Origin: an uncultured virus (IMG/VR IMGVR_UViG_3300037067_011710)
Taxonomy: Duplodnaviria; Heunggongvirae; Uroviricota; Caudoviricetes
Virus record (IMG/VR): IMGVR_UViG_3300037067_011710
DNA length: 64,000 bases
Reading direction: 5' to 3' (one strand)
Below, piece after piece: positions 17,842-33,010 of the stretch. Within the stretch, counting starts at the first letter, position 1. Each line of letters begins with the position of its first letter. A program made the position numbers and the translations under genes. The notes under the pieces were generated by a model. It saw nothing but the letters and a program-made list of their open reading frames with translations. It searched no databases and had not been told where the DNA came from.

Positions 17842-18545
17842 TTATGCAGAAACCTCTTGATCGTCTTCAGCTTGTTCATTCCATGCAGTTCTTCACTGAA
17901 TCTTGGTGGTCTCACTATTGTGGAGTGATTCATTTCGTGAACATTCACGACGAAATGTCCGTCTTCCAGCACAACAGCTCCGAAACTTTTGATATATGTG
18001 TGCTCAACCGGATCAAACCGATACATCCCTTTAACATATTTCTGCACGTAGAATGGTCCACTGCCACAGCAATCATACTTCCACATCTTGCCATTGTAAT
18101 AGCAATATCCATATCCGCGTTGAAAATATCCGTACTGTTCTGATACTGGAAACTCATTTAAAATGTATTCAAACGTATCCCGAGAATACATATCATCAGA
18201 ATCGATACGAACTGCATAGGTAGTATCGTAATTCTCCCTTAAAAGCTTCATAGTATCATTGTAATTTTTAGTCCCGAAATAAAGAAGTTTAACTCTGGAA
18301 TCTTCTTTCATTACTTGGCTAAAAATATTGTCGGTAATATGCTTAGTTTGAATGTTACACATCAAATAATAAACAAATTTTCCATTCTGTACTGCTATGC
18401 TTGGATACGTGAATTTTCTCCATATCATATATCGATCATTGATCCATCCTTCTTTCAGTACCGGATGAACTTCTTGAGTCTTCCAATCTTTGAATGGAAA
18501 TAAGAAAAAATTAAATGGGGTCCAGCACACCACCAGATCATTCAT
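17838..18545 (-). CDS. Putative rhamnosyltransferase-like glycosyltransferase
   Basis: WINDRYMIWRKFTYPSIAVQ...VRIDSDDMY...NVHEMNHST. Confidence 0.7.
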   Translation of the reverse strand: MNDLVVCWTPFNFFLFPFKDWKTQEVHPVLKEGWINDRYMIWRKFTYPSIAVQNGKFVYYLMCNIQTKHITDNIFSQVMKEDSRVKLLYFGTKNYNDTMKLLRENYDTTYAVRIDSDDMYSRDTFEYILNEFPVSEQYGYFQRGYGYCYYNGKMWKYDCCGSGPFYVQKYVKGMYRFDPVEHTYIKSFGAVVLEDGHFVVNVHEMNHSTIVRPPRFSEELHGMNKLKTIKRFLHK

Positions 18546-19255
18546 ACCTCAACAAACTCCATCTTGGCACCTTCCCAATAATACTTTTCATGCTCCTCAT
18601 GCAGCGTTTCTTGAAACAATTCCAGCCTGCCGTAATGTTCCGGTCGAAATATCAAATCTGTACACGGTTCCTGTCGAGCAATTTCACGGTATCCGTCAGC
18701 ATCCGATTTTACCCCATGCACCCTCGGTCGATACGAAAAATGCCTGCATCCCTTCGGGTAATACTCCGGCAGCTTCTTTTCGAAGTACCGATACCAATAC
18801 TTTTCATACTCTGTGTCGTGATACATCGTAATCCCGGCGTGTCGGGCCATAGCCATCAGTGAGTACACTCTTGTTCCGGCGAAAGAATCAACGAACAGCA
18901 AATCAATCTTCAGCTTCTTCGGCAGCAATAGATACCAGTAGTATATTTCCTTACGCTGCTTTAGTATCAGCTTTTCAGGGTATGTGCTGAATACCAGGTT
19001 TCCGAACTGCTTTGAAACGAATACCACGTTTTTTCCGCACTTATCAGCTATGGCATCAATCCATTCCTGGTTGTGCTCTATCCCTACAACCGACTTGCAT
19101 CCTGCCGACCATATCGGGGTGCTGTTCGGTCCACACCCACACTCTACAACAGCTTCAGGCTTGAATACCTTGATTACTGATCTAATCACCGGCTGGTGTG
19201 ACGGCCGCATTTTGATGACTTTCATTCCATGCCTCTTTAAATGTTTTATGAGCAC
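18542..19255 (-). CDS. SAM-dependent methyltransferase-like protein
   Basis: VVECGCGPNST, IEHNQEW, DLLFVDS, HDTE motifs. Confidence 0.7.
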   Translation of the reverse strand: MLIKHLKRHGMKVIKMRPSHQPVIRSVIKVFKPEAVVECGCGPNSTPIWSAGCKSVVGIEHNQEWIDAIADKCGKNVVFVSKQFGNLVFSTYPEKLILKQRKEIYYWYLLLPKKLKIDLLFVDSFAGTRVYSLMAMARHAGITMYHDTEYEKYWYRYFEKKLPEYYPKGCRHFSYRPRVHGVKSDADGYREIARQEPCTDLIFRPEHYGRLELFQETLHEEHEKYYWEGAKMEFVEV

Positions 19256-20069
19256 GCAATGGCGCTTCAGGATTACCGAATTGCTGTTTTGATAAAAACG
19301 TATTGAATTCTTTCAGGTGTCTGCACGTTGATTTATAGAGTTTAACATTTTTCAACCTGATCGGATTCTTCAAATTTCTACATTTGGGATGCCATAAATG
19401 ATACACAGTTTGGTTATGCATAATATAGGTTTTTGATGCAAACTGAGCACGTCTGGCGATTTCATTATCTGGGCCTCCCAGCTCTTCAAACCATTCATTG
19501 CATCCACCAATGGAAAAAAAGAATTTTTTGTTGAATAAAACCATCCCGCCTTCACTCGCTCCGATGGTAGGATGAACGAACATTGACCCTCTTCGTTCTG
19601 CGATATCATTACTAACTGCTATCCCGGATAGAATCATCTTTCGATGAACTTCCGACGTGTAGCAAAGGTTATCCCATGCAATAATCCAATCGCATTCAGT
19701 TATTTCGTTGAGATATGGTTTAGGTGCCCACATATCAGACTCGGCGATAGCGATGGTGTTAAACCGTGCGGCCTTAGCTCCGACATTACAGCACCACCCT
19801 TTGTTGAAGGTTTTATATTCTATTGGTATGATTTTTGCATATCGCTTACCGAGACACATAAATTTATTGATGACATCCACTACCTTTCCGGGCATCATAG
19901 TGTCCTGCAAAACAATCACCAGCTCCAAGGCCTTATGCTTGGCGTAGAATGTGCGAATAGAGAATGCCAGTGCTTCCCATCGATCGGGCATAGCCTTGCC
20001 ATTGTAGGCGTCTCCTATGGGGATTATGACAGAAACTTCATTCATACTTTGGTTCCGTTGGTAAAACAA
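19182..20069 (-). CDS. Glycosyltransferase (GT2 with GT7 C-terminal-like domain)
   Basis: VSVIIP, FNKGWCCNVGA, IGGCNEWFEELGGPDNE, YHLWHP. Confidence 0.8.
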   Translation of the reverse strand: MFYQRNQSMNEVSVIIPIGDAYNGKAMPDRWEALAFSIRTFYAKHKALELVIVLQDTMMPGKVVDVINKFMCLGKRYAKIIPIEYKTFNKGWCCNVGAKAARFNTIAIAESDMWAPKPYLNEITECDWIIAWDNLCYTSEVHRKMILSGIAVSNDIAERRGSMFVHPTIGASEGGMVLFNKKFFFSIGGCNEWFEELGGPDNEIARRAQFASKTYIMHNQTVYHLWHPKCRNLKNPIRLKNVKLYKSTCRHLKEFNTFLSKQQFGNPEAPLRAHKTFKEAWNESHQNAAVTPAGD

Positions 20070-20340: not shown

Positions 20341-21092
20341 ACCCTCTCATTACATTTCTGACAGCAAAACTTCTCAATTTGGTGCAATTCCCATGCAATC
20401 TGCCGGTCAACGTTATTTATCTTGTTAAAAATCGCTCGATATTCTTGCGTATTAACTATCCCCAGCCATCGTTCGGCCCGGTCCCGCGGTATCCTGGCAC
20501 GAAGCCTTATTTTGGCTGCATCAGCGTCGGTCATACCCCTGATTGCTCCGGCGTGGATACCAAAATGCCTTCTCACAAGGGAGTCCCTTGCTGGCAACTG
20601 CATACCTGATTCGGTTATTATCTTGGCGAGAATGTATTCATCTTCTCCCACTGCTTTCCCGATTTCTCCCCGGCGTAACGCCCAATAATACTTCTCTCTG
20701 GCCTCTTTGGTGCGCTTAAACCATGATACGTGCCCGAAGTGCAGGCCGGTCACCGGTCGCCCACCCTTGGCGTTGGAATAGCATTGACCGGTCTGCTGCA
20801 TGCTTTGCAGGTGATACTCCATGAGAGTAGGTTCACTGCGTAGAATAAAGAGATCCACGTCACCGATATAGAAATACTGAAATCCTTCCCGGTAATACTC
20901 GACTGGTGGCTCCATGACATATCTCATGACTGCCCCATAGTACGGTCCCCATCCGTGGCTTTGTGGCGGTCCCCAAGTAGTAAACACCATCGGTCGATAC
21001 TCCGGATACTCATGGTGAATACAAAAGCGCCACAGGTCGGAGAACGCTTGATATCGACCTGTGGCGAACGTGTAGACGAAAAGCTTGTTCAT
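20337..21092 (-). CDS. Glycosyltransferase-like protein
   Basis: YFYIGDVDLFI DxD motif; TGLHF; DEYIL. Confidence 0.55.
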   Translation of the reverse strand: MNKLFVYTFATGRYQAFSDLWRFCIHHEYPEYRPMVFTTWGPPQSHGWGPYYGAVMRYVMEPPVEYYREGFQYFYIGDVDLFILRSEPTLMEYHLQSMQQTGQCYSNAKGGRPVTGLHFGHVSWFKRTKEAREKYYWALRRGEIGKAVGEDEYILAKIITESGMQLPARDSLVRRHFGIHAGAIRGMTDADAAKIRLRARIPRDRAERWLGIVNTQEYRAIFNKINNVDRQIAWELHQIEKFCCQKCNERV

Positions 21093-21601
21093 GCAACCCT
21101 TCCAAAATCACCATGCAACATGCGACTTGCTTCAGCATATGCTTCAGCGGCTTTCTCACGATTATTAAAATATCCAAGAAATTTTAATTTTCTTTTTAAA
21201 TAAATTTGTGCACGCCATTTTTTATTTTGTTTATACCAGTATACACCCTTGAACCCAGATGTGTTATTTTGATGAATTTTCTGATTATGTTGATTTTGAG
21301 AAGCAGTAGCAAATCGTAAGTTTAATCTTCTATTATTCAATCCATTTCTGTCACGATGATCAACTTCAACATCGAAAGGGGCATTTGTAATAAATCGATG
21401 CATGGAAATTGTGTGTCGTTTTCCATTCTCATCACTTCTGGAACAACAACAAGCATACACGGTGTTCTCTGCCGGTACAGCAAACCAATTACGTTTTTTA
21501 ATCAACGAAACATCCATCACATCAATAACCGCCTCATGTCCCCTCGTTAATGGAACATATGCAATATCTCCTTCAATGCGAATATGACGAATTTCGTTCA
21601 C
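21089..21601 (-). CDS. HNH endonuclease with AP2 domain
   Basis: VDHRDRNGLNNRRLNLR; NTSGFKGVYW...KWRAQI...LGYF. Confidence 0.9.
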   Translation of the reverse strand: MNEIRHIRIEGDIAYVPLTRGHEAVIDVMDVSLIKKRNWFAVPAENTVYACCCSRSDENGKRHTISMHRFITNAPFDVEVDHRDRNGLNNRRLNLRFATASQNQHNQKIHQNNTSGFKGVYWYKQNKKWRAQIYLKRKLKFLGYFNNREKAAEAYAEASRMLHGDFGRVA

Positions 21602-23199: not shown

Positions 23200-25239
23200 T
23201 CATAATAAATTTTCGTATTCTGATACCTTTTTTACGGTATCTTGCTGATTACCTATCAACTTCTCCCTAATCTGCATTTTTTTGCGAGAATACGGGACAA
23301 TAAACATCCCCTGATCCGACTTTCGCGTCTCCTCTTTTATATGAGCCTCGATCATCATCAGTGATCTTACCAGTGGATAACCTTGAGGTATCTTTTTATT
23401 CTCATAGCACATCCGGCGCAACTGCACATCAGTCTCAACACAGTCAGAGTGCAAGAGAAGTATGTTGTCGGCAAACATCTTGTTTACCCGAAACACTGAG
23501 GAATGCTCATCATACATAGCCCCCTCAAAAATTCGTATGCCGCATTTCTGCAATTCCTTCTTTATGTTCGACTTTCCCTTCTTTGCCATGGCTTCGTTGC
23601 AAAATATTTTCCTTACTGTGACAAAATGTTCCTGCGATTCCAGTTGAACAATTGCTTTCTCCCTGATTTCCTCTGCCAACAACCGCGGAATCGGATACGG
23701 CTGAAAAATTTCGTTATAGACCTTCAGCTTACGTTTGGCATGAGACCATAAATAGCATCCACCATACACGCCCCCGGTTTCTTCCAACCACAGAACGATG
23801 TATACGCTGACATTTTGAGGTTGAATCTTATCAAACTCGGTTTTCTCTTTATTAAAACTGGAAACATGAACCAGCGGATTGTAATATTCAATAATTGGTT
23901 TCGGGCCTACCAACTTTTTAAACAATCCTGATATAGCATCAGCCCTGTCTTTTTTCCCATATGGGAATCTGGCACATTGAGATAGTGTAGGTTTATTCCA
24001 CGACCCCCGCAAAAATTTAACCCGTCCAAATTCTGCCCATGCTGCCCATGGCCTAAACCTCTCTTCCTTCTGCTCTTTAACTGGATCAGCCTTTGCACTA
24101 AAGCCCTTGAATATCTGAAGAAGATATTCTGACCCCCATTTTCCTGTAGCCTTTGATTCTTCCCATTCTATTTCTACATCCCGTCCGTCTGTCTCTGCAG
24201 TCTGGCGCATTATGTTTTCAGCTTGCCCTGGGGTTTTCTGGAAAGCCTCTATGTCGGTTACATAGAATATCCCATCATATATCCCTCCTTTAGCTCCGGC
24301 CGTTTCACACGGATCATTTTTCTTTTCCTCATCCTTTTCAGTTTCTGCAAGATCCCAATATCGAGATTGTTTCAATTCTGGTGGAATACTATCGACAATC
24401 TCTATCCATGAAGGATCAAATAAATTTCCAGCTTCAGTAATAAGCCAGTTTCCTTTTCCTATTCGTTCCCTAGTTACCCGGTCAGTTCCCATTACCTTTG
24501 CTTTATATTCTTCCCGGTTGGGCATCAGTTCGTTGGTATCAAGAGGAGCATCGATATAGGTTACGCTTGTCGGTGGTCTTCTATCCTCATCTCTTGCATC
24601 AGGAGATACCCATTCTATTTCATCGGTATTCCTGTCCCTTAAAAAATATCGTAGTTTTCCGCTTCTTTCGGGTATAGCATATCCTGTTTCGGGGTCCCAC
24701 CACCATTGAAAAAACTCCGCACACCAGGTATCAGCATCAGCGTTTCCTGTACAAAATGTAAATGGTTTTATTCTACATTCACCATAATTTCTATTCCTGG
24801 TTTGTAAATAAAAAAACTGACTTTTAGTAAACTGTGGAAGTTCATCAAATACTTCACATGTCCAAGCCAATCCTTGGTGATGAAATTTATCCGATTCATT
24901 ATTTAAATGTCCTATTTTTATATAAGCATTTGAAGGAAACGTCCATTCGGTTTTTCCCCTTACACCGTACCCATTGATTGCGGGATAAATATCTTGAGTA
25001 ATATCCCACAACCCACCCCCACCAACAATATCGTTATATTGTCTCCTAAAAATTACTGCGGTATAATCTTTGATATGAGCGTATCGACAAGCTGCAAGAG
25101 TAGAAACAACACTTTTCCCTCCCCCTCCTGGTCCTCCCATAAATGTAATATCGGCAGATGAAAGCAGTGCTTGGGTCTGCGGTCCGGGTTGTGGTCCAAT
25201 TATAGGCCTTCCATCTCCGGAATATCCTACAGGTTTCAA
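23200..25239 (-). CDS. terL: Terminase large subunit
   Basis: PQPGPQT Q-motif, GGPGGGGKS Walker A, VFDELPQF Walker B, RYWDLAET nuclease motif. Confidence 0.92.
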   Translation of the reverse strand: MKPVGYSGDGRPIIGPQPGPQTQALLSSADITFMGGPGGGGKSVVSTLAACRYAHIKDYTAVIFRRQYNDIVGGGGLWDITQDIYPAINGYGVRGKTEWTFPSNAYIKIGHLNNESDKFHHQGLAWTCEVFDELPQFTKSQFFYLQTRNRNYGECRIKPFTFCTGNADADTWCAEFFQWWWDPETGYAIPERSGKLRYFLRDRNTDEIEWVSPDARDEDRRPPTSVTYIDAPLDTNELMPNREEYKAKVMGTDRVTRERIGKGNWLITEAGNLFDPSWIEIVDSIPPELKQSRYWDLAETEKDEEKKNDPCETAGAKGGIYDGIFYVTDIEAFQKTPGQAENIMRQTAETDGRDVEIEWEESKATGKWGSEYLLQIFKGFSAKADPVKEQKEERFRPWAAWAEFGRVKFLRGSWNKPTLSQCARFPYGKKDRADAISGLFKKLVGPKPIIEYYNPLVHVSSFNKEKTEFDKIQPQNVSVYIVLWLEETGGVYGGCYLWSHAKRKLKVYNEIFQPYPIPRLLAEEIREKAIVQLESQEHFVTVRKIFCNEAMAKKGKSNIKKELQKCGIRIFEGAMYDEHSSVFRVNKMFADNILLLHSDCVETDVQLRRMCYENKKIPQGYPLVRSLMMIEAHIKEETRKSDQGMFIVPYSRKKMQIREKLIGNQQDTVKKVSEYENLL

Positions 25240-25838
25240 TCTTGATTCCTGCCATTATCAGGTATGCATAAAAGTGGAATAATAACAGTATTACCTCCTC
25301 CACTCCCACCCTCGGTAATCTTATGATGTTCTGCCAGCAATCGTATCATGGCTTCCTTTGACCACAACTCGTATTCGTACACGTTCTCTATCAGCTTATT
25401 GGTATTTCCATCCTCATCTTTTCCGCCAATGTCAGTAACCCGCTGAGTGTGCTTTATTTTTTTAATCGCCCGACGCCCTGGTCCCATTTCAAAAATATTC
25501 TTCAGAGCAATCCCGCCACCTTCATCTTTTACAAATAAATTGGCAGGATCAGAAAAGGCTATCAATGCTGCCTCTTCCAGAACATTATCAGCAGTTTTAT
25601 TATATCTTTTTAATGCAACATCGACTTTTAGCGCTAAAAAATCTTTTGCCTTTTGAGTTTTTAACAGGTTGTATCCACTACGTTGAGCATTGGATGGACG
25701 ATAACCAGCATCTATAAAAGCCTTTTTTATATCATTACCATTAGAAATATATAAACAAAGAGCTTTTTCTTCTTTAACAGAAAGATTATCTTTTTTTTCA
25801 AATCTATTTACTGCGATTTTTTTCATACCTGACCTCAT
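25236..25838 (-). CDS. terS: Terminase small subunit
   Basis: AFIDAGY, ADNVLEEAALIAFSD, KEAMIRLLAEH; directly upstream of terL. Likely start is 25826 (GAGG SD). Confidence 0.85.
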   Translation of the reverse strand: MRSGMKKIAVNRFEKKDNLSVKEEKALCLYISNGNDIKKAFIDAGYRPSNAQRSGYNLLKTQKAKDFLALKVDVALKRYNKTADNVLEEAALIAFSDPANLFVKDEGGGIALKNIFEMGPGRRAIKKIKHTQRVTDIGGKDEDGNTNKLIENVYEYELWSKEAMIRLLAEHHKITEGGSGGGNTVIIPLLCIPDNGRNQD

Positions 25839-25904
25839 AACGTACTATGCATGCTGACGTTTTGCTTCAAAATGTGCGGAGCGAACAGCATGCGACTGTT
25901 GTAC
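25835..25904 (-). repeat. attC-like site 1
   Basis: TCATAAC..GCATGCTG...CAGCATGC..GTTGTAC. Confidence 0.75.
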
Positions 25905-26050
25905 GAAGTTCGCCCCGCTTCCTTAGTGTTCCCGTGGCGGCATTCCGCGCACAGGACGTGCGCAATCTTAAAAGCAATGGCCTGCTCCGCAGTGCCCACC
26001 GCGAATAGTATTTGTGGTAGTTATGATCCATCTCACGATTTTAGTAAACA

Positions 26051-26908
26051 TTACACCCATCCTTTCGATAAGGTTCCGTTTGCATATACAACCCCGTACA
26101 TATTTCTTGCCGGAGCAAAAATTTTATATAACCCTTTTATCCCGTCCATAAACGATGCTGATAAAGTTTTTTCACACATAAAGCATGATCGCTTCAAAAG
26201 TAGTTTAGCTTTAACGCCGGGAATTATGTTTTTTAATTCAACAAAAGACTGGCACCCACCGTAAAATGGTGATGGCAATTTAATGTCAAATGTGTTTTCG
26301 AAAGAAACGAAGCAATCTTTGCCGTGTTGAATTTCGGATAATTTTATTTCATCAAAACCCATTCCGTCATAATGACGAATGCAGTCCGAAATATCGGAAC
26401 GAGTATACAAATATGGTTTTACTATGTTTAAATTTATCCGCACTTTTTCTTTGGGTAACGAAGCATAAAAAGACTGCCGATCATATTTAGATTTGGTTTT
26501 TCTTATTTCGTCTGCTATCTTTTCATCGTGAGACTGTACTGATAAATTTATTCCGTCGATCAAGGAAATCAATTCTAAAAACAACGCCCTGTTGTCAAAG
26601 CATTTTTTAGGCACCGCAGTTGTTACAAACAATTTCAACTTAGTTTTGTTTTTTAATTCCTTGATGCACGAAACAAGTTCTTCAAGAAATAGGCATGGCT
26701 CCCCTCCAAGAAAAAGAACATCGTCGTATCCGTTGCAATGTTCGACTATTGTTTTTACAATTTCCGGTACATTAGGAACTGCTGCACCAACCCCGTGGAA
26801 TCGAGTGTCAATACAGTGGGCACATTTATTATCACAAGAACTTGTAAAGTGTACATCGAATGAATTATACAGGCCATCACAACAGTTCTTTTTGAAAGGA
26901 TTTTGCAT
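26051..26908 (-). CDS. Radical SAM protein (cassette 1)
   Basis: CDNKCAHC, LGGEPCL. Start reassigned to MQNPFKK because the ORF-track N-terminus lies in the neighbouring att site. Confidence 0.85.
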   Translation of the reverse strand: MQNPFKKNCCDGLYNSFDVHFTSSCDNKCAHCIDTRFHGVGAAVPNVPEIVKTIVEHCNGYDDVLFLGGEPCLFLEELVSCIKELKNKTKLKLFVTTAVPKKCFDNRALFLELISLIDGINLSVQSHDEKIADEIRKTKSKYDRQSFYASLPKEKVRINLNIVKPYLYTRSDISDCIRHYDGMGFDEIKLSEIQHGKDCFVSFENTFDIKLPSPFYGGCQSFVELKNIIPGVKAKLLLKRSCFMCEKTLSASFMDGIKGLYKIFAPARNMYGVVYANGTLSKGWV

Positions 26909-26987
26909 TTTCTTTTCCTCTTCGGCGCACGACGCGCCGTCTTTTTTCTGCCGCCACCTACAATTCAGATTTTGCGGGGCGAATTTT

Positions 26988-27124
26988 GTACAACAGACTC
27001 GCAAATGTGTGCTGGCATCCGGGGGCGTAACCGTACAGCCGATCGGTTCTGTAAGCACCTTCATACAAGGTACACCCTATGCATAAAAGAGACCCCGGAT
27101 GCTTGAACACTTTGCGTGTTAGCG
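26988..27124 (-). repeat. attC-like site 2
   Basis: AAC-AGACT-CGCAAA-T-GTGT..GCATCCGGGG...CCCCGGATGC..ACAC-TTTGCG-T-GTT. Confidence 0.8.
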
Positions 27125-27425
27125 GCTGTTAACCGCGATTCCACAACTCACCTTTCCGGCGCGTGTTTCTGCAACGTACTTTCGAACGGCAGACCGGTAA
27201 CACTGAAAACAAAGCTCCCTGAACTTGGTAAACACAGGCTTCCACGATGGCCTCGGAACACCCTTTGAATCCTTATCGACACACGGTACGATATGGCTGA
27301 ACTCTGAAAAATCACGGATCTGTGTAGAATGGCTGCCGCAACAATCGCAAATTACCTGCTCCATTTTATCTCCTATGTAAGCGCCGGAACTTTAATGCTC
27401 CAGAGCGGTTTATTGACGCTAACGT
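26991..27425. repeat. 435-bp direct repeat, copy 1 (cassette 2)
   Basis: Identical by eye to 28524-28958 (offset 1533); the ORF translations are identical. Confidence 0.95.
27119..27364 (-). CDS. Small Cys-rich protein (cassette 2)
   Basis: CDCC...LCFQC; AGGAG SD. Confidence 0.7.
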   Translation of the reverse strand: MEQVICDCCGSHSTQIRDFSEFSHIVPCVDKDSKGVPRPSWKPVFTKFRELCFQCYRSAVRKYVAETRAGKVSCGIAVNSR

Positions 27426-27590
27426 GCTCAGGCACCAGCCCGAAGTTGACCGACAATCCAATCGTAACAAAACCTCACGATATCAAACTCCTCTTCCGTG
27501 GCACGATGGTTAGTATCTTTAATACTCTGCTGATCATATGCAAATTCCAAATTCTTAACGTCGGGCAATTTTGGGCTGCCTGTGTTATCG
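27417..27590 (-). repeat. attC-like site 3
   Basis: AAC-GTGCT-CAGGC..AGCCCGAAGTTG...CAATTTTGGGCT-GCCTG-T-GTT. Confidence 0.75.
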
Positions 27591-27751
27591 GTCTGTTGCT
27601 CGGCGCTACCCTTGCTCTGCCGGGCATGCTGCAAACCGGCAACAATGTCTGATAACGCAATAACGGCATTTTCAATATTATCGCCCGAACAGCACTCCAT
27701 TAACTAATCGCGAATACTGCCTGCATCTTGTTCAAATGTTGATATTGACAT
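27428..27751 (-). pseudogene. Cassette 3 ORF with in-frame TAG at codon 16
   Basis: AAGGAG SD then MSISTFEQDAGSIRD*LMECCSGD..., continuing in frame into the 90-aa ORF. Confidence 0.55.
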
Positions 27752-27803
27752 AAATGCTCCTTAAATCCACGCCCGGCCTTTAACATGGCCGCCGAGCAAT
27801 TGC

Positions 27804-27931
27804 CGATAACGGCTTGCGGTACGCATGAAGTAAAGTACGACCGCATACCGCTTACCTTTATTTTATGCTACCGCTGTTAGTTTCCGTTTTGCGGCTTTCC
27901 AATTCGGCATGTTGGCCTTGCGTTGTTGGGC
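27804..27931 (-). repeat. attC-like site 4 (composite)
   Basis: AAC-GGCTT-GCGGTA-C-GCATGAAGTAAAG...CTTTATTTTATGC-TACCGC-T-GTT (27876), plus a second core GTTGGGC at 27925. Confidence 0.75.
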
Positions 27932-28118
27932 GTATGTGCCCGTTTTGTACCATAATACCCTGCGGTGGCCTTCTTTGTTCGTAGCGAATAGCCGCCAGCA
28001 TAGCACACTCACGAATCTCTGAGGGTGTAAGCTGCAACGCGTGAATATGATGCTCCAAAGAATCCACCAAAGCCTTAATCAGGGGGTCGTGCATATAACG
28101 ATACTCGATTGACTGCAT
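27858..28118 (-). CDS. Hypothetical protein (cassette 4)
   Basis: RYMHDPLIKALVDSLE...LTPSEIRECAMLA; start set at MQSIEY inside the cassette. Confidence 0.65.
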   Translation of the reverse strand: MQSIEYRYMHDPLIKALVDSLEHHIHALQLTPSEIRECAMLAAIRYEQRRPPQGIMVQNGHIRPTTQGQHAELESRKTETNSGSIK

Positions 28119-28160
28119 TGGCCACCGCCTATAATAAATTGTTTTCAAAACGGGCATTTC

Positions 28161-28298
28161 GCCCAACCTTTACGCAATGGTAGCTGCTCCGCGCCACTTG
28201 CACGGAACTTTAGGCCACCAACAATTTACACCATTACAAAACGGGCTGTCGCTTGCTTTACAGTATCTGCGCGGAGTTGATACCTTGCGTTGTTGGAT
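28161..28298 (-). repeat. attC-like site 5
   Basis: AAC-CTTT-ACGCAA-T-GGTA..CTCCGCGC...GCGCGGAG..TACC-TTGCGT-T-GTT. Confidence 0.8.
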
Positions 28299-28493
28299 GC
28301 TCGTAACCTTTGCCACCTTAATATTGGCGCGGTTTATTCTACGCCAAATGGTACAAAAGCTTGCACAACAAGCGTATCCCGAATAAAATGAATTATCATC
28401 GCAAATAGGCAATAATTTTGCACTATGTGGAGACTTTTGAAATTTACAATGCTCCGAGAACTGTTTAAAACTTACTTGTCTATATCCGCGCAT
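28170..28493 (-). CDS. Cys-rich hypothetical protein (cassette 5)
   Basis: Start MRGYRQ inside the cassette; the ORF-track N-terminus derives from att site 6. Confidence 0.55.
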   Translation of the reverse strand: MRGYRQVSFKQFSEHCKFQKSPHSAKLLPICDDNSFYSGYACCASFCTIWRRINRANIKVAKVTSIQQRKVSTPRRYCKASDSPFCNGVNCWWPKVPCKWRGAATIA

Positions 28494-28523
28494 TATAACT
28501 CCAAAGCAAAGGTTATTGCATTC

Positions 28524-28958
28524 CAACAGACTCGCAAATGTGTGCTGGCATCCGGGGGCGTAACCGTACAGCCGATCGGTTCTGTAAGCACCTTCATACA
28601 AGGTACACCCTATGCATAAAAGAGACCCCGGATGCTTGAACACTTTGCGTGTTAGCGGCTGTTAACCGCGATTCCACAACTCACCTTTCCGGCGCGTGTT
28701 TCTGCAACGTACTTTCGAACGGCAGACCGGTAACACTGAAAACAAAGCTCCCTGAACTTGGTAAACACAGGCTTCCACGATGGCCTCGGAACACCCTTTG
28801 AATCCTTATCGACACACGGTACGATATGGCTGAACTCTGAAAAATCACGGATCTGTGTAGAATGGCTGCCGCAACAATCGCAAATTACCTGCTCCATTTT
28901 ATCTCCTATGTAAGCGCCGGAACTTTAATGCTCCAGAGCGGTTTATTGACGCTAACGT
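28524..28958. repeat. 435-bp direct repeat, copy 2 (cassette 6, includes attC-like site 6 at 28521-28657)
   Basis: Identical by eye to 26991-27425. Confidence 0.95.
28652..28897 (-). CDS. Small Cys-rich protein (cassette 6, identical to cassette 2)
   Basis: Same 81-aa translation as 27119-27364. Confidence 0.7.
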   Translation of the reverse strand: MEQVICDCCGSHSTQIRDFSEFSHIVPCVDKDSKGVPRPSWKPVFTKFRELCFQCYRSAVRKYVAETRAGKVSCGIAVNSR

Positions 28959-29082
28959 CAAGCGAATATGTGAAGTGGCGGCACAGCCCCTCCCGACCGC
29001 GTTAAGCTCTTGTCGGGGCCAACACCACATGTTAACAGCACATAAGTCTGCTTGCCGCCATTTTATATATTCGCTGTTGTGT
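28950..29082 (-). repeat. attC-like site 7
   Basis: AAC-GTCAA-GCGAATATGTGAAGTGGCGGCA...TGCCGCCATTTTATATATTCGC-T-GTT. Confidence 0.8.
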
Positions 29083-29221
29083 GAACGTAAAGAAGGCTTC
29101 CATAGTGTAAGCGCGTGCTCGGTCGTCTTGACTAACTACCATTACGAATACACACTGGACGGTAAGCCCCAGGAACCAAACTAATAACGCGCCTACAACC
29201 ATAAAAGCCTTCTTTATTTCC

Positions 29222-29300
29222 ACACAACGTTTACGCAGTGCGAAGTCGGCGCTTCGCCGATTTGTGCGGAGTCTTCGGAGCCACACTGCGTTTGTTAAGC
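29222..29300 (-). repeat. attC-like site 8
   Basis: AAC-GTTT-ACGCAGTG...CACTGCGT-TT-GTT. Confidence 0.7.
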
Positions 29301-29464
29301 GAAGTTTTGGCGGCTACCGCTGTCTTCAGAGGTTTGCAAACCTCTGAGCCACACCATACTGTTTCTTCGTTTTCAAGTTTAACCTTGTAGGGTAAATCAC
29401 AATCTTCATCGTCAACAGCAACAATGACGCCACTTAATACAACTTTTGTTCCTATCTCAAGCAT
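29231..29464 (-). CDS. Small SH3-like beta protein (cassette 8)
   Basis: GGAGG SD then MLEIGTKVVLSGVIVAVD...PYKVKL. Confidence 0.6.
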   Translation of the reverse strand: MLEIGTKVVLSGVIVAVDDEDCDLPYKVKLENEETVWCGSEVCKPLKTAVAAKTSLNKRSVAPKTPHKSAKRRLRTA

Positions 29465-29500
29465 GTAAACCTCCTCCAATTTAAGAGCCGACAAAATTTT

Positions 29501-29632
29501 GTTTAACGTGTGCCGTGTTATGCTCGTGCCGACCTATACGATGGGCACTCAACTCCATCATTCTCTAAGTCACAACCCTCTGCACGTAAAGCACATGATG
29601 GGCAAAGGCATGGCATAACGCGGCTGTTGTGC
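29501..29632 (-). repeat. attC-like site 9
   Basis: AAC-GTGT-GCCGTGTTATGC...GCATAACGCGGC-T-GTT. Confidence 0.8.
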
Positions 29633-29745
29633 GAAGGTTTTAACTCCTCCGCAGATTTAGCGCATTTGTGGTCAACTGCTAATTCACGAGTCGGAAACTT
29701 CGCCTCGCACTTATCGCACTGATAAAAAGTAAGTATTGTTCTCAA
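29518..29745 (-). CDS. Zn-finger-like small protein (cassette 9)
   Basis: AGGAGG SD, TTG start; YQCDKCEAKF...HKC. Confidence 0.6.
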   Translation of the reverse strand: MRTILTFYQCDKCEAKFPTRELAVDHKCAKSAEELKPSHNSRVMPCLCPSCALRAEGCDLENDGVECPSYRSARA

Positions 29746-29778
29746 ATGCGCCTCCTAAATAAAAGCGTTAAAACTTTT

Positions 29779-29918
29779 GTACAACGGGTTGCTAAACGGG
29801 TTTAGTTTGCCCGTTGGTTGACACAGGGTTTATCGAAACATTTAAGCGTCGTCATCTCGGAAAAGCACTTCTCTCCGTGTTTGAAAAAAGGGCAAATTGA
29901 ACCCTTTGGCTGTTGCAC
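29779..29918 (-). repeat. attC-like site 10
   Basis: AAC-GGGTT-GCTAAA-C-GGGTTTAGTTTGCCC...GGGCAAATTGAACCC-TTTGGC-T-GTT. Confidence 0.85.
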
Positions 29919-30098
29919 GTCTGTGGCCGGTGACTCCACCTGTTGCCGGGCGACAACCTCAGCCCCGATAATAGTATAGTGCGGATACTCAGCGATTAGG
30001 CGCTCCACCTCCGGAAGTTGTACGTCTACCGTTTTAAGCGAAAACTCACTTTGATCGAATCCGCACTGGTGGCACTCTCGTAAAATGATTCTTAACAT
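29802..30098 (-). CDS. Hypothetical protein (cassette 10)
   Basis: 98-aa ORF filling the cassette. Confidence 0.6.
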   Translation of the reverse strand: MLRIILRECHQCGFDQSEFSLKTVDVQLPEVERLIAEYPHYTIIGAEVVARQQVESPATDVQQPKGSICPFFKHGEKCFSEMTTLKCFDKPCVNQRAN

Positions 30099-30151
30099 AT
30101 AAGCTCTTTCGTTTTAGCCCGGCTTACAATCGTGATCTCACCGGGCATTGC

Positions 30152-30240
30152 GTGCAACGGTTTGCCGCACAGCCGAAGCTGGCGACTACAATTTATCTTC
30201 CACAGCCGACTTCGCCAGTTTTGGCTTGCGGCTGTTGGCT
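30152..30240 (-). repeat. attC-like site 11
   Basis: AAC-GGTTT-GCCGCA-C-AGCCGAAGCTGGCGA...TCGCCAGTTTTGGCT-TGCGGC-T-GTT. Confidence 0.85.
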
Positions 30241-30917
30241 GTTGTAAATCGCGCTTCCGAAGTGTTCTCCGGGGCGCTCCTCGCGCACACGATGTGCGCT
30301 CTTAATTGTTTTCCAATGTACTCGGTGTACGCAGGTGGGATTGCCTCAGAAAGCTCTTCCCGAGTAACCCACCAATCTACGCCCATTGCCAATGCTCCAT
30401 CAGCCCGCTTATAGTTATGCCCTGCGCATGTGATGAAATCGTAGTTCTCTAAAGTGTGATAGCACCCCTTCGATGGGGCCATACGACCCCAGTGGTTACA
30501 GGAGCCGGGAAGCATGATCAGGAAATTCGATTCGAATTTACGATGTCGAAGCACCCGCAAATTAAACATTGTTCCGCACAAAGTTATAGCGTTGATTAGT
30601 GGGGCATCGGGGACGTTTTCTATAACGAAAGGGACTCCGGATTGCTTTAGTCTTTCGCGAACAGGAGCCACCAAATCCGGGTAGTCAATTTCTGGATGCA
30701 GATACGCAAGTCTGGAATATTTTTGACATGGCGGGCTGGCGTGTATTGCATCAAAACCTGAAATAGGATACGTTGTTGCGTCTGCCTGGTGAAACTCGAA
30801 CGGGTAATGCGGCTGCGGGTTAATATCCACCCCGACCACGTCGAAGCCAGCGCGGCTATAGCCGACACTGCAACCGCCAGCCCCGCAGAACAAATCAAGT
30901 AATTTTGGTTTTCGCAT
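30186..30917 (-). CDS. DNA (cytosine-5)-methyltransferase, short phage type (cassette 11)
   Basis: LLDLFCGAGG, HASPPCQ, IENV, EAIPPAYTEYIG. Confidence 0.9.
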   Translation of the reverse strand: MRKPKLLDLFCGAGGCSVGYSRAGFDVVGVDINPQPHYPFEFHQADATTYPISGFDAIHASPPCQKYSRLAYLHPEIDYPDLVAPVRERLKQSGVPFVIENVPDAPLINAITLCGTMFNLRVLRHRKFESNFLIMLPGSCNHWGRMAPSKGCYHTLENYDFITCAGHNYKRADGALAMGVDWWVTREELSEAIPPAYTEYIGKQLRAHIVCARSAPENTSEARFTTANSRKPKLAKSAVEDKL

Positions 30918-30996
30918 TTTGTCTTTCGCGGCCCCGGACGGGCCGATTCTGTTTTGCGCCCCGGCTATAATAATTTGCCTTTGCGCGATTTATTGC

Positions 30997-31069
30997 AGCT
31001 AACGTGTTGCGGCATAGGTGACGTTCGGCTTTGCGAATGTGCGAAGCGAACACCTTGCCGCTGTTATAC
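30997..31069 (-). repeat. attC-like site 12
   Basis: AAC-GTGTT-GCGGCA-T-AGGT..GTTCG...CGAAC-ACCT-TGCCGC-T-GTT. Confidence 0.85.
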
Positions 31070-31093
31070 GGCGTTTGAAAAGTTTACCACCAG

Positions 31094-31675
31094 TCATAAT
31101 GCGCCCCACTGTTCCGCCATGGCACGCGCGATTCCGCTGTACGTGATGGAACGAATGAGATGCCGGTTGGGACTCGGCGGCAACTTGTGAATACGACCAA
31201 CTCTTCCGGAGACAATATCGGTTGCCCGGAGAGCCGGAAGCCCACTTAACCACAAACAAGTTGCTTTAGTTTCACCATGACCGAACTGCCACGGATGTAC
31301 TATTTGCGTATACCGTTTACCAATGATCTCAAGTGCCTTTCCGTGAGGAATGGGATTTTCGACGCAGATGCTTTTTGCGTTGGCATTAAGGCACTTCTCA
31401 AAAAAATGGCAAGCCTGCACCATTTTGCACCATCGACCCGGTTGAGTATAAAGCCAACGCACACCGCTGTTGCAGAGATAAGTACAATCCGGGTGTGCAA
31501 TAACTAAATCCCATTCCTCGCATAATAACTCGGAGACATCCCCATGGATATGCGAACCCCGCTCCGAACTGGATGGAAGTAAATCGCAAGATACGGCATG
31601 GTGACCGTACTCAAGAAAGGAATCGCGCACCGTTCCGCTGAACTCACACGCTACGAGAATTTTTTTAGGGCGCAT
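31094..31675 (-). CDS. DNA cytosine methyltransferase-like protein, minimal phage family (cassette 12)
   Basis: ILVACEFSGTVRD, WDLVIAHPDCTYL, ENP, PWQFGH..KATCLWL, RSITYSGIARAMAEQWG. Confidence 0.8.
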   Translation of the reverse strand: MRPKKILVACEFSGTVRDSFLEYGHHAVSCDLLPSSSERGSHIHGDVSELLCEEWDLVIAHPDCTYLCNSGVRWLYTQPGRWCKMVQACHFFEKCLNANAKSICVENPIPHGKALEIIGKRYTQIVHPWQFGHGETKATCLWLSGLPALRATDIVSGRVGRIHKLPPSPNRHLIRSITYSGIARAMAEQWGAL

Positions 31676-31707
31676 TTATAATCTCCAGAAACTTTTCAAA
31701 TGTTGTA

Positions 31708-32061
31708 TAACTACTTCAAAGCCGTAATGGCCCTGCGTATCTCGTTGATCCTGTTAATATCTCTTTCTTTAAGAAAATCCATTTTCTTTCCAATCTTTCT
31801 TAAAAACGAAGCTACTATCGCATGTACGTTATCCNNNNNNNNNNNNNNNNNNNNNNNNNNNNNNNNNNNNNNNNNNNNNNNNNNNNNNNNNNNNNNNNNN
31901 NNNNNNNNNNNNNNNNNNNNNNNNNNNNNNNNNNTAACTACTTCAAAGCCGTAATGGCCCTGCGTATCTCGTTGATCCTGTTAATATCTCTTTCTTTAAG
32001 AAAATCCATTTTCTTTCCAATCTTTCTTAAAAACGAAGCTACTATCGCATGTACGTTATCC
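31708..32061. other. Scaffold gap (100 N) flanked by a 127-bp duplicated overlap
   Basis: 31708-31834 equals 31935-32061. Confidence 0.9.
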
Positions 32062-32183
32062 GAAACAGTTCCTCCAGCAAACCCATAAAGAATATTTATC
32101 TCTGCCTCATATAAATAAACTTTGTGCTGTATTCGGACACGATTTCTAGCCATTTTAATGGCAGTGTGATCAGTTGCAATCAT
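31938..32183 (-). CDS. Hypothetical protein whose TAG stop overlaps the array entry GTT
   Basis: 81-aa ORF; TTGAAG-TAG-TTA. Confidence 0.65.
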   Translation of the reverse strand: MIATDHTAIKMARNRVRIQHKVYLYEAEINILYGFAGGTVSDNVHAIVASFLRKIGKKMDFLKERDINRINEIRRAITALK

Positions 32184-33010
32184 TTTAGAGGATCAGCCTG
32201 TCGTTGCGTTATCCGAAATGCTTCTATCATCGCCCGATATTTCGCCCGGTCTTTGTCACTAGACTTGGGAAGCGAAAAATATTTGTCCGCAATTTTTATT
32301 TGCGCTTCAACCTCTTTGGATGTCATTGGCGACTGCTTGCCATCGTTGAAATCAACGTCAGTGTTCTTCACACGCTCACCACGAGCAATCCGGTCGATAA
32401 CCTCAGTTTGTACACCCCTACGTGCTCTGGCCGTCTTAAGTGCAGCCGTTGGGCTTATAGCTCCTTCTTTTACGGCCTGCCTGATATCGGCAGGAGCTTC
32501 GAGCAGTTTGATAAGGTCCCTGATGTGCTGGTCACTACACCCGAGTCTCTTTGCAATATCTGATTTTTTCATTCCACCATCAACCAATTCTTTTATGGCT
32601 GATGCCTTATCGTCTGCACAAAGAGGCTCTGTGGTGGTACCATAGGAAAGCTGTTTCAGTATCAGATCAGCTCCAGAAAGCTTTTTTCCGCAAACTTTCT
32701 CTTCGAGTTCACAGTACAGCTCTGTTTTTTCCCATGATAAATTGGCAATTGCATAATTTGCAGCCCTGTGACGACGTTCTCCGTCAGTGTACTCGAACCA
32801 TTCCTCATCGTCCGACAGATATCCCCTTACAGGATCGCGCTGCCCCTCAAGGACTAGGCTATTCGCCAGTACCGCTATCGACTCTTGCGGGAATTGAGTC
32901 CGTATGTTCCGTTCCCCTCGGCGTATCTTGGATATCTGTATCCAATACCCGTTTCCGTCCCGGCGCACCCATGTCTTGTCCCTGATCCCCATCGTTTTTA
33001 TCCTTTCCAA
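32180..33010 (-). CDS. ParB-like nuclease/HTH protein
   Basis: GQRDPV...TDGERRHRA; HTH KKSDIAKRLGCSDQHI. Confidence 0.8.
   Translation of the reverse strand: MERIKTMGIRDKTWVRRDGNGYWIQISKIRRGERNIRTQFPQESIAVLANSLVLEGQRDPVRGYLSDDEEWFEYTDGERRHRAANYAIANLSWEKTELYCELEEKVCGKKLSGADLILKQLSYGTTTEPLCADDKASAIKELVDGGMKKSDIAKRLGCSDQHIRDLIKLLEAPADIRQAVKEGAISPTAALKTARARRGVQTEVIDRIARGERVKNTDVDFNDGKQSPMTSKEVEAQIKIADKYFSLPKSSDKDRAKYRAMIEAFRITQRQADPLK

What the first reader, a model, noticed from the sequence alone, without database searches (positions are those of the whole stretch)
26991..28958. One cassette duplicated exactly from crossover core to crossover core
Seen: 26991-27425 and 28524-28958 are identical by eye, separated by three other cassettes. 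Identity starts at cAAC and stops at AACgt, within 1-2 nt of the two GTT cores (unit 429 bp). Inference: this is a footprint of recent site-specific excision and re-integration. It also shows that the low-coordinate AAC of each hairpin, the one with the 5-nt spacer, is the crossover point.
Basis: seen in the sequence. Interest (0 to 1): 0.85.

Follow-up and report, generated by a model that had tools for sequence, protein, structure and literature searches.

The report
Duplicated gene cassette in phage array
One small gene with its hairpin site is present twice, letter for letter, inside a row of twelve integron-like gene cassettes in a phage genome, and the same row is still gaining and losing cassettes in natural samples.

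Summary
Window 26991-27425 and 28524-28958 are 435/435 identical, and identity stops within 1-2 nt of two AAC/GTT cores 429 bp apart.

The window is a ~67 kb tailed-phage genome with all genes on the - strand. No tyrosine recombinase was found.

The repeat is one unit of a 12-cassette array (25841-31711) between an 81-aa ORF/parB-like gene and terS. Each cassette ends in an imperfect hairpin, xxxxAAC-A-L''...L'-(4-5 nt)-GTTR. The bases before AAC are complementary to the first bases of the same cassette (45/60 positions, against 20/60 for the next cassette). That is the integron cassette signature.

In two metagenome runs the repeat is a separate 435-nt unitig at about 2x the depth of its flanks. 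A neighbouring cassette (708 bp) is present or absent exactly at the cores.

Distant relatives carry 2-3 cassettes at the same locus.

Most likely mechanism: copy-and-paste site-specific recombination at G|TT by a recombinase supplied in trans. The enzyme is not identified.

The site geometry is not canonical attC (spacers of 1 and 5 nt, not 5-6 on each arm).

Verdict: a new variant of a known kind, the attC clusters already reported in phages.

The parts
26991..27425 (-). Copy 1 of the exact repeat R (cassette C10, core to core 26994-27422)
   Evidence: 435/435 identical to 28524-28958
28524..28958 (-). Copy 2 of the exact repeat R (cassette C6, 28527-28955)
   Evidence: separate 435-nt unitig at about 2x depth in X1 and X2
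27119..27364 (-). 81-aa Cys-rich ORF of R, copy 1. No Pfam or PHROG family; the nearest Atlas clusters are viral hypothetical proteins, with a ZZ zinc finger as a lead only
28652..28897 (-). The same 81-aa ORF, copy 2
26992..27120 (-). Hairpin site S10 of R copy 1: CGCTAAC-A-CGCAAAGTGT...ACACATTTGCG-AGTCT-GTT; its stop codon lies in R''
   Evidence: dG -26.0 coding strand, -27.8 + strand
28525..28653 (-). Hairpin site S6 of R copy 2 (identical to S10)
27426..28523 (-). Segment B between the copies: cassettes C9 (27423-27809, 90-aa ORF), C8 (27810-28166, 86-aa ORF) and C7 (28167-28526, coding assignment uncertain)
   Evidence: L004 shows B flanked by R on both sides
27421..27586 (-). Site S9 (166 nt). 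R'' CCGATAAC is complementary 5/5 to its own start GTTATCGG. Found by the strict scan only
27808..27878 (-). Site S8 (71 nt). Its own-start complementarity fails (1/5)
28165..28294 (-). Site S7 (130 nt)
28954..29078 (-). Site S5 (125 nt). R'' CACACAAC is complementary to its own start GTTGTGTG
   Evidence: (I3)
28956..29227 (-). Cassette C5 (272 bp). Possible 58-aa membrane ORF. Its 5' end also pairs with the region before R'' (31-nt arms, 81%)
   Evidence: (I1); the ORF was read by eye
29226..29296 (-). Site S4 (71 nt), inside the 3' end of the C4 ORF
29228..29506 (-). Cassette C4 (77-aa ORF 29231-29464)
29505..29628 (-). Site S3 (124 nt)
   Evidence: (I25)
29507..29784 (-). Cassette C3 (75-aa ORF 29518-29745)
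29783..29914 (-). Site S2 (132 nt). R'' CGTGCAAC is complementary 5/5 to its own start GTTGCACG
   Evidence: score 7.5
29785..30157 (-). Cassette C2 (98-aa ORF 29802-30098)
30156..30236 (-). Site S1 (81 nt), inside the 3' end of the methylase gene
30158..31002 (-). Cassette C1: C5 cytosine DNA methyltransferase (243 aa, 30186-30917)
   Evidence: PF00145; phrog_363; its ends recur in other flanks in run X3
31001..31065 (-). Site S0 (65 nt)
31003..31710 (-). Cassette C0: DNA methyltransferase (193 aa, 31094-31675). Present or absent in the population
   Evidence: phrog_757, E 2.9e-55; joint 30999->31708, skips 708, 4 shared letters
31709..31711 (-). First junction J-1: the stop codon TAG of the 81-aa backbone ORF overlaps the GTT. 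No attC-like hairpin seen upstream (attI-like position)
   Evidence: same arrangement in L007/L008
25841..26993 (-). Cassette C11: radical SAM protein (286 aa, 26051-26911)
25839..25900 (-). Site S11 (62 nt). R'' GTACAAC is complementary to its own start GTTGTAC, but the spacing is looser. Last site, directly before terS
   Evidence: not recovered by the blind scan
25236..25838 (-). terS (terminase small subunit): backbone gene bounding the array downstream
   Evidence: PF03592
31938..32183 (-). 81-aa backbone ORF bounding the array upstream. No family and no PDB relative
32180..33010 (-). ParB/Spo0J-like protein upstream of the array
31835..31934 (.). 100-N scaffold gap between two copies of a 127-nt overlap (31708-31834 = 31935-32061). 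The overlap starts at J-1, where the C0 presence/absence bubble branches

Best explanation
The 435-nt repeat is a genuine second copy of one mobile gene cassette: an 81-aa ORF plus its 129-nt hairpin site. It lies in a 12-cassette, integron-like array in the accessory region of a ~67 kb tailed phage, between the replication and packaging modules. Shown here: the copies are exact; they end at the GTT/AAC cores of hairpin sites; the repeat has about twice the depth of its flanks; the middle segment is flanked by it on both sides. Also shown: all sites share one geometry (xxxxAAC-A-stem...stem-4/5 nt-GTTR on the coding strand), and each site's R'' matches the start of its own cassette. Another cassette is polymorphic exactly at the cores, and distant relatives have cassettes at the same locus. 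Inferred: a cassette was excised as a circle closed at G|TT from one replicating phage genome. It then inserted at the GTT of another site in a genome that still had the original. This is the 'copy and paste' outcome known for integrons, where single-strand exchange is resolved by replication. Further inferred, with less confidence: the catalyst is a structure-specific tyrosine recombinase supplied in trans by the host (IntI-like), because the phage encodes none.
For: Exact repeat and its boundaries.

Depth: about 2.4x (X1) and 1.8x (X2) the mean of the four flanking unitigs.

Linkage: L004 shows R-B-R. Another assembly of the same phage (L002) breaks 123 nt inside the repeat.

Site geometry:
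- The blind scan at threshold 8 gives 10 hits on the - strand, 9 of them in the 6-kb array, and 1 on the + strand.
- The array has 9 hits against a mean of 0.15 (maximum 2) in 200 shuffles. Hits peak sharply at spacers 1 and 5, with no enrichment at 5/5, 5/6 or 6/6.
- Background in 797,225 bases of unrelated loci is 42 hits on both strands, or 1.7 per 64-kb strand.

Own-start complementarity: 45/60 against 20/60, with 0 of 100000 permutations reaching it. For the blind subset: 32/45 against 15/45, with 7 of 200000. It holds 3 of 3 in relatives.

Other cassette-level events: a precise 708-bp cassette polymorphism with 4 shared letters, and a cassette homologue in other flanks ending at the cores.

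Folding: the + strand, which would be the 'bottom' strand, folds more stably in 10 of 12 sites, by a mean of 1.3 kcal/mol. Passages of PMC5027507 report the same direction for attC.

Published precedent:
- attC clusters without an integrase occur in virulent phages, some carrying methyltransferase cassettes, and 5 of 6 tested sites were recombined by IntI1 (PMC9892861, section 3.4 read).
- Integrase activity produces copy-and-paste duplicates (PMC8024014, passages).
Against: - No recombinase of any Pfam family was found. This covers 157 window ORFs scanned, the two records that cover bases 774-27113 and 31935 onwards, and two partial relatives.
- The sites fail canonical attC criteria. Spacers are 1 and 4-5 nt, not 5-6 on each arm. 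Only 2 of 11 distinct cores fit GTTRRRY. Single-base bulges, where present (S2, S6/S10, S7), lie on the arm opposite to canonical extrahelical bases. One site is 166 nt (canonical values; a validated phage attC oligo shows 5/5 spacers).
- S8 fails the own-start rule (1/5). S9 and S11 were not recovered by the blind scan. The unconstrained folds of S1, S2 and S9 do not give the expected hairpin.
- Neither copy is in first position, where integrase-mediated re-insertion usually lands.
- Cassettes carry a conserved promoter-like motif, unlike typical promoterless integron cassettes.
- The L007/L008 cassette difference is flanked by a 24-nt direct repeat, so ordinary homologous recombination could explain that event.
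- Contig depths are one figure per contig, and the tool warns they are not copy numbers. One of X1 and X2 may be the source sample.
- No read spans both copies.
Confidence: 0.6

Rival explanations
1. The same cassette logic, but the recombinase is not an integron integrase. It could be a universal host enzyme such as XerC/D acting on folded single strands, or an unrecognised phage-encoded enzyme tied to this locus. The array would then be a phage-specific analogue of an integron.
For: - The geometry (spacers 1 and 5) is non-canonical yet conserved in the window and in relatives with only 57% terS identity.
- The locus is fixed between the 81-aa ORF and terS in all three phages.
- Cassettes share a phage-type 5' motif.
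- No integrase is present.
- Many phage ORFs have no family.
Against: - No candidate enzyme was found. The parB-like neighbour is an ordinary ParB/Spo0J/Noc relative, and the 81-aa ORF matches nothing.
- No resemblance to dif-type arms was seen. This rests on my recall of dif sequences and was not tested.
- Published phage attC sites do work with IntI1.
Confidence: 0.2
2. No site-specific enzyme is involved. The duplication and cassette losses arise by homology- or microhomology-driven recombination, or by template switching at hairpin bases. The phage ERF/SSB annealing system could be involved. This would resemble the promoter-stem-loop (PeSL) cassettes that shuffle genes in T4-type phages.
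For: - The phage encodes ERF and SSB.
- Each cassette starts with a conserved motif after the hairpin, recalling the PeSL promoter-plus-stem-loop units that recombine and form mini-circles (PMC2839356, abstract).
- The L007/L008 difference is flanked by a 24-nt repeat.
Against: - The flanks of the two R copies share only ACGTT on one side and GTTG on the other.
- The C0 joint shares 4 letters. Both are too short for annealing-based exchange.
- The hairpins differ in sequence and length between cassettes.
- This model gives no reason for R'' to match the start of its own cassette.
- No T-runs follow the hairpins, and none of the 12 sites is called terminator-like.
Confidence: 0.13
3. The two copies are never on one molecule. 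The assembler threaded one repeat twice, and the true population is A-R-C plus a separate circular or tandem B-R molecule, or a mixture of variants.
For: - The assembly is a short-read scaffold. It has a 100-N gap with a 127-nt overlap.
- Other assemblies break at the repeat.
- Minor variants exist around the array (joints and loose ends).
- No spanning read was seen.
Against: - B is flanked by R on both sides, and no listed piece joins A or C directly to B. 101 further pieces were not shown.
- B has the same depth as A in both runs: 15-17 against 16.6 in X1, and 68.6-77.4 against 72.7 in X2.
- R is about 2x its flanks. A free circle would have to be equimolar with the phage in two samples.
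Confidence: 0.07

Closest known systems
Clusters of attC sites lacking an integrase (CALINs) in phage genomes (Qi et al. 2023, PMC9892861; section 3.4, passages and one supplement table read)
   Same: Co-oriented ORF-plus-hairpin cassettes in virulent-type phages without intI. DNA methyltransferases occur among the cassettes. Cores are AAC/GTT.
   Different: The published examples have 2-3 predicted sites, were found with canonical attC models, and show 5/5-nt spacers in the one oligo I parsed. Here there are 12 cassettes and an asymmetric 1/5-nt spacer. The locus is fixed and shared with distant relatives. There is also direct population evidence of duplication and gain or loss. Whether IntegronFinder or HattCI would call these sites is untested.
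Integron cassette arrays with copy-and-paste duplicates (Souque et al. 2021, PMC8024014, passages; Loot et al. 2012, PMC3458562, listing and abstract start only)
   Same: The duplicate is bounded exactly at G|TT. R'' matches the cassette's own start. Other cassettes separate the copies.
   Different: There is no intI, attI or common promoter. The insertion was between two hairpin sites rather than at the first position. The replicon is a phage.
PeSL mobile regulatory cassettes of T4-type phages (Arbiol et al. 2010, PMC2839356, abstract read)
   Same: Small accessory phage genes are separated by stem-loop plus promoter-like units. Modular shuffling occurs and mini-circles are proposed.
   Different: PeSLs recombine through their conserved sequence. 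Here the hairpins are not conserved in sequence, exchanges share only 4-5 nt, and the R''/own-start rule points to a folded site-specific substrate.

Membership tests
Integron attC site / gene cassette | Imperfect palindrome with AAC near one end and GTT near the other; second inverted repeat (L box) inside | tested here: met
   12 sites. The blind scan finds 9 of its 10 - strand hits in the array, with 1 hit on the + strand. Shuffles give a mean of 0.15.
Integron attC site / gene cassette | Structure conserved while sequence and length vary | tested here: met
   The stems differ completely between sites and lengths run from 62 to 166 nt.
Integron attC site / gene cassette | R'' complementary to the first bases of its own cassette (R box completed only in the circular form); crossover at G|TT | tested here: met
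   45/60 positions against 20/60. Blind subset 32/45 against 15/45, with 7 of 200000 permutations reaching it. The duplicate and the 708-bp polymorphism end at the cores.
Integron attC site / gene cassette | Extended consensus RYYYAAC / GTTRRRY | tested here: not met
   GTTR holds in 13 of 13 junctions, but the full GTTRRRY fits only 2 of 11 distinct junctions (read by eye). The consensus is from PMC5027507.
Integron attC site / gene cassette | Unpaired central spacer of 5-6 nt on each arm | tested here: not met
   Hits peak at 1 nt and 5 nt (6 of 6 in the array), with no enrichment at 5/5, 5/6 or 6/6. The canonical value is, and a validated phage attC oligo shows 5/5.
Integron attC site / gene cassette | Extrahelical bases on the L'' arm of the bottom strand | tested here: not met
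   Single-base bulges are seen in S2, S6/S10 and S7. They lie on the other arm, and most sites have none (read by eye).
Integron attC site / gene cassette | Length 57-141 bp | tested here: inconclusive
   Measured AAC to GTT, 11 of 12 sites are 62-132 nt and S9 is 166 nt.
Integron attC site / gene cassette | Recombined by an integron integrase; called by IntegronFinder or HattCI | not testable with these tools
   No such program or assay was available.
Complete integron | Adjacent intI (tyrosine recombinase) with attI and Pc | tested here: not met
   PF00589 is absent from G001, G002, G003 and G004, while the control genomes rang 14 of 14. No recombinase family was found in 157 window ORFs.
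PeSL regulatory cassettes (T4-type phages) | Conserved promoter plus terminator stem-loop sequence through which copies recombine | tested here: not met
   A promoter-like motif is present. However, the hairpins are not conserved, they lack T-runs, and the exchanges share only 4-5 nt.
IS200/IS605-type single-strand transposons | Subterminal hairpins at both ends and an HUH TnpA | tested here: not met
   There is one hairpin per unit and no transposase family in any ORF.
Assembly artefact | Repeat depth equal to flanks, or middle segment joined to unique flanks directly | tested here: not met
   R is about 2x its flanks in X1 and X2. B is joined only to R in the listed pieces and in L004. Contig depth is a rough measure.

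The most novel reading that the evidence does not exclude
A lineage of integrase-less tailed phages maintains a dedicated cassette-exchange locus between parB/ORF81 and terS. Its folded recombination sites form a class of their own (AAC-A-stem...stem-5 nt-GTT), and each cassette brings its own promoter-like element. The locus would be serviced by a recombinase that is not a classical integron integrase: either a hijacked universal host enzyme or an unrecognised phage protein. That would make it a phage-borne analogue of the integron for shuffling anti-defence genes such as methyltransferases and radical SAM enzymes, invisible to current attC detectors.
Probability: 0.2. Interest if true: 0.9.

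Novelty: new variant of a known kind. Interest (0 to 1): 0.65.

Why it matters
attC clusters have been reported in a few phages, but as static predictions of two or three sites. Here one phage population shows a twelve-cassette array in motion. One cassette is copied, one is present in only part of the population, and others recur in different flanks in other samples. All of these events sit at the same three-base core.

This suggests phages can reshuffle small accessory genes, including anti-restriction methyltransferases, by cassette exchange rather than only by homologous mosaicism.

The sites depart from the canonical attC spacing, so they may escape IntegronFinder-type searches. If so, such arrays could be commoner in viral metagenomes than thought.

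The finding also turns the open question of which enzyme serves attC-like sites in integrase-less phages into something testable with defined substrates.

Tried and rejected
- The window's own assembly is not held.
- blastn of 26000-30200 against 50,697 phage records gave no match.
- The R protein found only its own phage's contigs plus one weak 19-residue hit, L001. Its function stays unknown.
- Single-protein scans with the radical SAM protein and terS found only the same phage. An alignment was needed to reach relatives.
- The one genome-contig scan, with the C0 methyltransferase, returned 80 loci at 49-59% identity across many phyla. None had an array of such sites, and the hits there lack the AAC-A-GC signature. 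They gave no host clue and served only as background.
- Earlier findings were not open.
- A covariance model of the sites was considered and dropped.
- The terminator reading of the hairpins was rejected: none of the 12 sites appears in the terminator-like list.
- The reading of the cassettes as inverted-repeat (MITE-like) elements GTTxxxx...xxxxAAC was rejected, because the duplicated block includes the 3' hairpin and stops at the next GTT.
- Several short joints at 90-95% likeness could not be interpreted. Examples are 27625->27770, 27808->27906, 30755->30880, 30268->25932, and the joints skipping about 1.0 kb of the radical SAM gene.
Full report
**1. The observation**

Window 26991-27425 and 28524-28958 are identical over exactly 435 nt, and identity stops at once on both sides.
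- The left flanks are ...ttttgta|CAAC and ...gcattc|CAAC.
- The right flanks are AACGT|gctcagg and AACGT|caagcga.
- The only other long direct repeat nearby is a 127-nt pair flanking a run of 100 N.

**2. Context**

The window is not a bacterial integron. It is a tailed-phage genome with essentially all genes on the - strand.
- Structural and packaging genes: P22-type portal and large and small terminase subunits.
- Replication and recombination genes: ParB-like protein, SNF2 helicase, DnaB, ERF and SSB.
- Other: several radical SAM proteins and a 2821-aa ORF.
- A protein identical to terS sits on a contig of 67,345 nt.

No tyrosine recombinase is present.
- PF00589 is absent from the two virus records that together cover bases 774-27113 and 31935 onwards. 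The control genomes rang 14 of 14.
- Across 157 window ORFs scanned against Pfam (22 + 47 + 88), no recombinase or transposase family appears.

**3. The array**

Read on the - strand, the region from 31711 down to 25841 consists of 12 units. Each unit has four parts:
- It starts with GTTR.
- It then carries a short leader with a Shine-Dalgarno sequence.
- It then has one ORF.
- It ends in an imperfect hairpin of the form xxxxAAC-A-stem...stem-(4-5 nt)-GTT.

Two cassettes encode DNA methyltransferases (phrog_757, phrog_363), and one encodes a radical SAM protein. The rest are 58-98-aa ORFs without any family.

The array is bounded upstream by an 81-aa ORF whose stop codon overlaps the first GTT. 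Downstream it is bounded by terS.

**4. Is the site pattern real?**

A strict scan required AAC, a 1-nt spacer, at least 6 of 7 stem pairs, a 5-nt spacer and GTT. It gave 12 hits on the - strand, 8 of them in the array, and 4 on the + strand.

A blind relaxed scan at threshold 8 gave 10 hits on the - strand, 9 of them in the array, and 1 on the + strand. At threshold 7 the counts were 14 (11 in the array) and 7.

Controls:
- The array region has 9 hits against a mean of 0.15 (maximum 2) in 200 mononucleotide shuffles.
- A matrix of spacer lengths peaks at 1 and 5 nt, with 6 hits, all in the array. Nothing is enriched at the canonical 5/5, 5/6 or 6/6.
- In 797,225 bases of unrelated bacterial loci the same scan gives 42 hits on both strands, or 1.7 per 64-kb strand.

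Limits of the scan:
- S9 was found only by the strict scan, and S11 only by eye.
- The unconstrained folds of S1, S2 and S9 do not show the expected hairpin.

The + strand folds more stably than the coding strand in 10 of 12 sites, by a mean of 1.3 kcal/mol.

**5. The cassette signature**

In integrons the crossover lies between G and TT of the core. A cassette's R'' is therefore complementary to the first bases of that same cassette, not to the bases that follow its site in the array.

Here the 5 nt before AAC match the complement of the cassette's own first 5 nt after GTT at 45 of 60 positions. Against the downstream neighbour they match at 20 of 60.
- With the duplicate site S10 dropped, 0 of 100000 permutations reach the observed score.
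- I had located some R'' boxes knowing what to expect. I therefore repeated the test on the nine sites S0-S8 that the blind scan recovers, dropping S9, S10 and S11. The result was 32/45 against 15/45, and 7 of 200000 permutations reach it.
- One site (S8) fails, at 1/5.

**6. Is the duplication real?**

Logan contigs (31-mer unitigs) of two runs, labelled landfill and groundwater metagenomes, hold 99% of the region's words. One of them may be the source sample. In both runs R is a separate unitig of exactly 435 nt.

| Run | R depth | Flanking unitig depths |
|---|---|---|
| X1 | 37.4 | 16.6, 15, 17, 14.1 |
| X2 | 124 | 72.7, 68.6, 77.4, 59.2 |

That is about 2.4x and 1.8x the mean of the flanks. 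The tool warns that contig depth is one figure per contig and is no copy number, so I use only the ratio between adjacent unitigs.

Linkage:
- The middle segment B has the depth of the unique flanks.
- A metagenome contig, L004, equals window 28646->27303 with 0 mismatches: 123 nt of R, then B, then 123 nt of R.
- Another assembly of the same phage (L002) stops 123 nt inside copy 1.

The only linear path through this graph is A-R-B-R-C. The alternative is A-R-C plus an equimolar B-R circle in two samples, which I rate unlikely. No spanning read was available.

**7. Other cassette events**

First, in both runs a contig joins 30999 to 31708, skipping 708 nt with 4 letters (TAAC) shared at the joint. 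Its depth is 11.3 in X1 and 40.6 in X2. The unitigs of the skipped cassette C0 have depth 6.83 in X1 and 36.6-40 in X2.
- The skipped stretch is exactly cassette C0.
- The branch explains why the scaffold has a 100-N gap whose 127-nt overlap begins at 31708.

Second, in a third run (X3) a 2973-nt contig carries both ends of the methylase cassette (30155-30303 and 30941-31005).
- It has 752 other letters in place of 637.
- It runs on into unlike sequence exactly at 30155 and 31005.
- A 650-nt contig there holds C0 with 3 differences.

Third, two IMG/VR relatives, L007 and L008, have terS 57% identical to the window's. Between the homologue of the 81-aa ORF and terS they have 3 and 2 cassettes.
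- They share the same geometry, and the own-start rule holds in 3 of 3.
- They differ by one 358-bp cassette.
- That difference is flanked by a 24-nt direct repeat, so homologous exchange could explain it.

**8. Mechanism**

The best-supported reading is cassette excision as a circle closed at G|TT, followed by insertion at the GTT of another site in a genome that kept the original. This is the copy-and-paste outcome described for integrons (passages of PMC8024014).

The flanks of the two copies share only ACGTT and GTTG, which is too little for annealing-driven exchange.

The enzyme is not identified. A host integron integrase acting in trans is the most economical candidate, because attC sites of virulent phages have been shown to be IntI1 substrates (PMC9892861, section 3.4).

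Against this:
- The sites do not have canonical attC spacing (5-6 nt on each arm; PMC5027507 passages). A validated phage attC oligo reads 5/5.
- Only 2 of 11 distinct cores fit GTTRRRY.
- Bulged bases are few and lie on the other arm.
- Cassettes carry a conserved promoter-like motif (alignment A1).
- Neither copy is at the first position.

These points keep open a non-IntI enzyme. To a lesser degree they also keep open a PeSL-like, homology-driven process (PMC2839356, abstract).

**9. Comparison and novelty**

Clusters of attC sites without an integrase are already known in phages: 17 among 10,705 genomes, with 2-3 sites in the figured examples. Duplicate cassettes are known in integrons.

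What I did not find in the papers I read, retrieved by the searches:
- an array of this size in a phage;
- its conservation at one locus across distant relatives;
- the asymmetric site geometry;
- direct evidence from natural populations that cassettes are being copied, gained and lost at the core.

I did not search the literature for the geometry itself, and supplements of other papers were not read.

I file it as a new variant of a known kind.

Noticed in passing
31708-32061: The 100-N gap (31835-31934) lies between two identical 127-nt stretches, so it is a scaffold join with a negative gap. The overlap begins at the first cassette junction, where the C0 presence/absence bubble branches.
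   Followed up: yes
31003-31710: The methyltransferase cassette C0 is polymorphic in both holder runs. The deletion form has depth 11.3 against 6.83 for the cassette in X1, and 40.6 against about 38 in X2. The same cassette is at depth 29.4, with 3 differences, in a third run where most of the phage is absent.
   Followed up: partly
first 70 nt of each cassette, e.g. 30932-31009, 28096-28173, 26923-27000: A conserved leader follows the core: GTTRnnn(G/A)(C/A)AAT, then 20-35 nt further a promoter-like ATT(A/G)TA(G/A)G followed by a GC-rich run. It also occurs in a cassette of relative L007. Its function was not tested.
   Followed up: partly
27917-27933 and 28281-28298: The 14-mer CCAACAACGCAAGG occurs twice on the - strand. 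One copy is the R''-L'' of site S7. The other lies inside the C8 ORF, where CGCCCAAC is a perfect complement of C8's own start while the scanned site S8 is not. This may be a relic half-site or a fused cassette.
   Followed up: no
25900-27000 and 30303-30941: Contigs in X2, X3 and X6 keep both ends of the radical SAM and methylase cassettes but skip or replace about 1.0 kb and 0.64 kb of their interiors. The cassettes therefore have conserved ends and different cargo, or very divergent alleles.
   Followed up: no
27115 / 31048: A contig in X2 (depth 15.1) joins the 3' half of site S0 to the R'' of the R cassette through 11 other letters. This is a minor variant of R with a different, shorter hairpin site.
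   Followed up: no
14450-20069: A run of genes for LicD, two further radical SAM/SPASM proteins and a family-2 glycosyltransferase lies in the phage's structural region. It may be a modification cluster.
   Followed up: no
46271-54736: A 2821-aa ORF has no Pfam family. ORFs of 920, 860, 766 and 764 aa nearby are also mostly without families.
   Followed up: no
21089-21601: An HNH plus AP2-domain protein, typical of homing endonucleases, lies between small phage genes.
   Followed up: no
28167-28526: Cassette C7 has an implausible Cys/Arg-rich 107-aa ORF on the - strand and a 69-aa ORF with a hydrophobic stretch on the + strand. Which one is coding, if either, is unclear.
   Followed up: no
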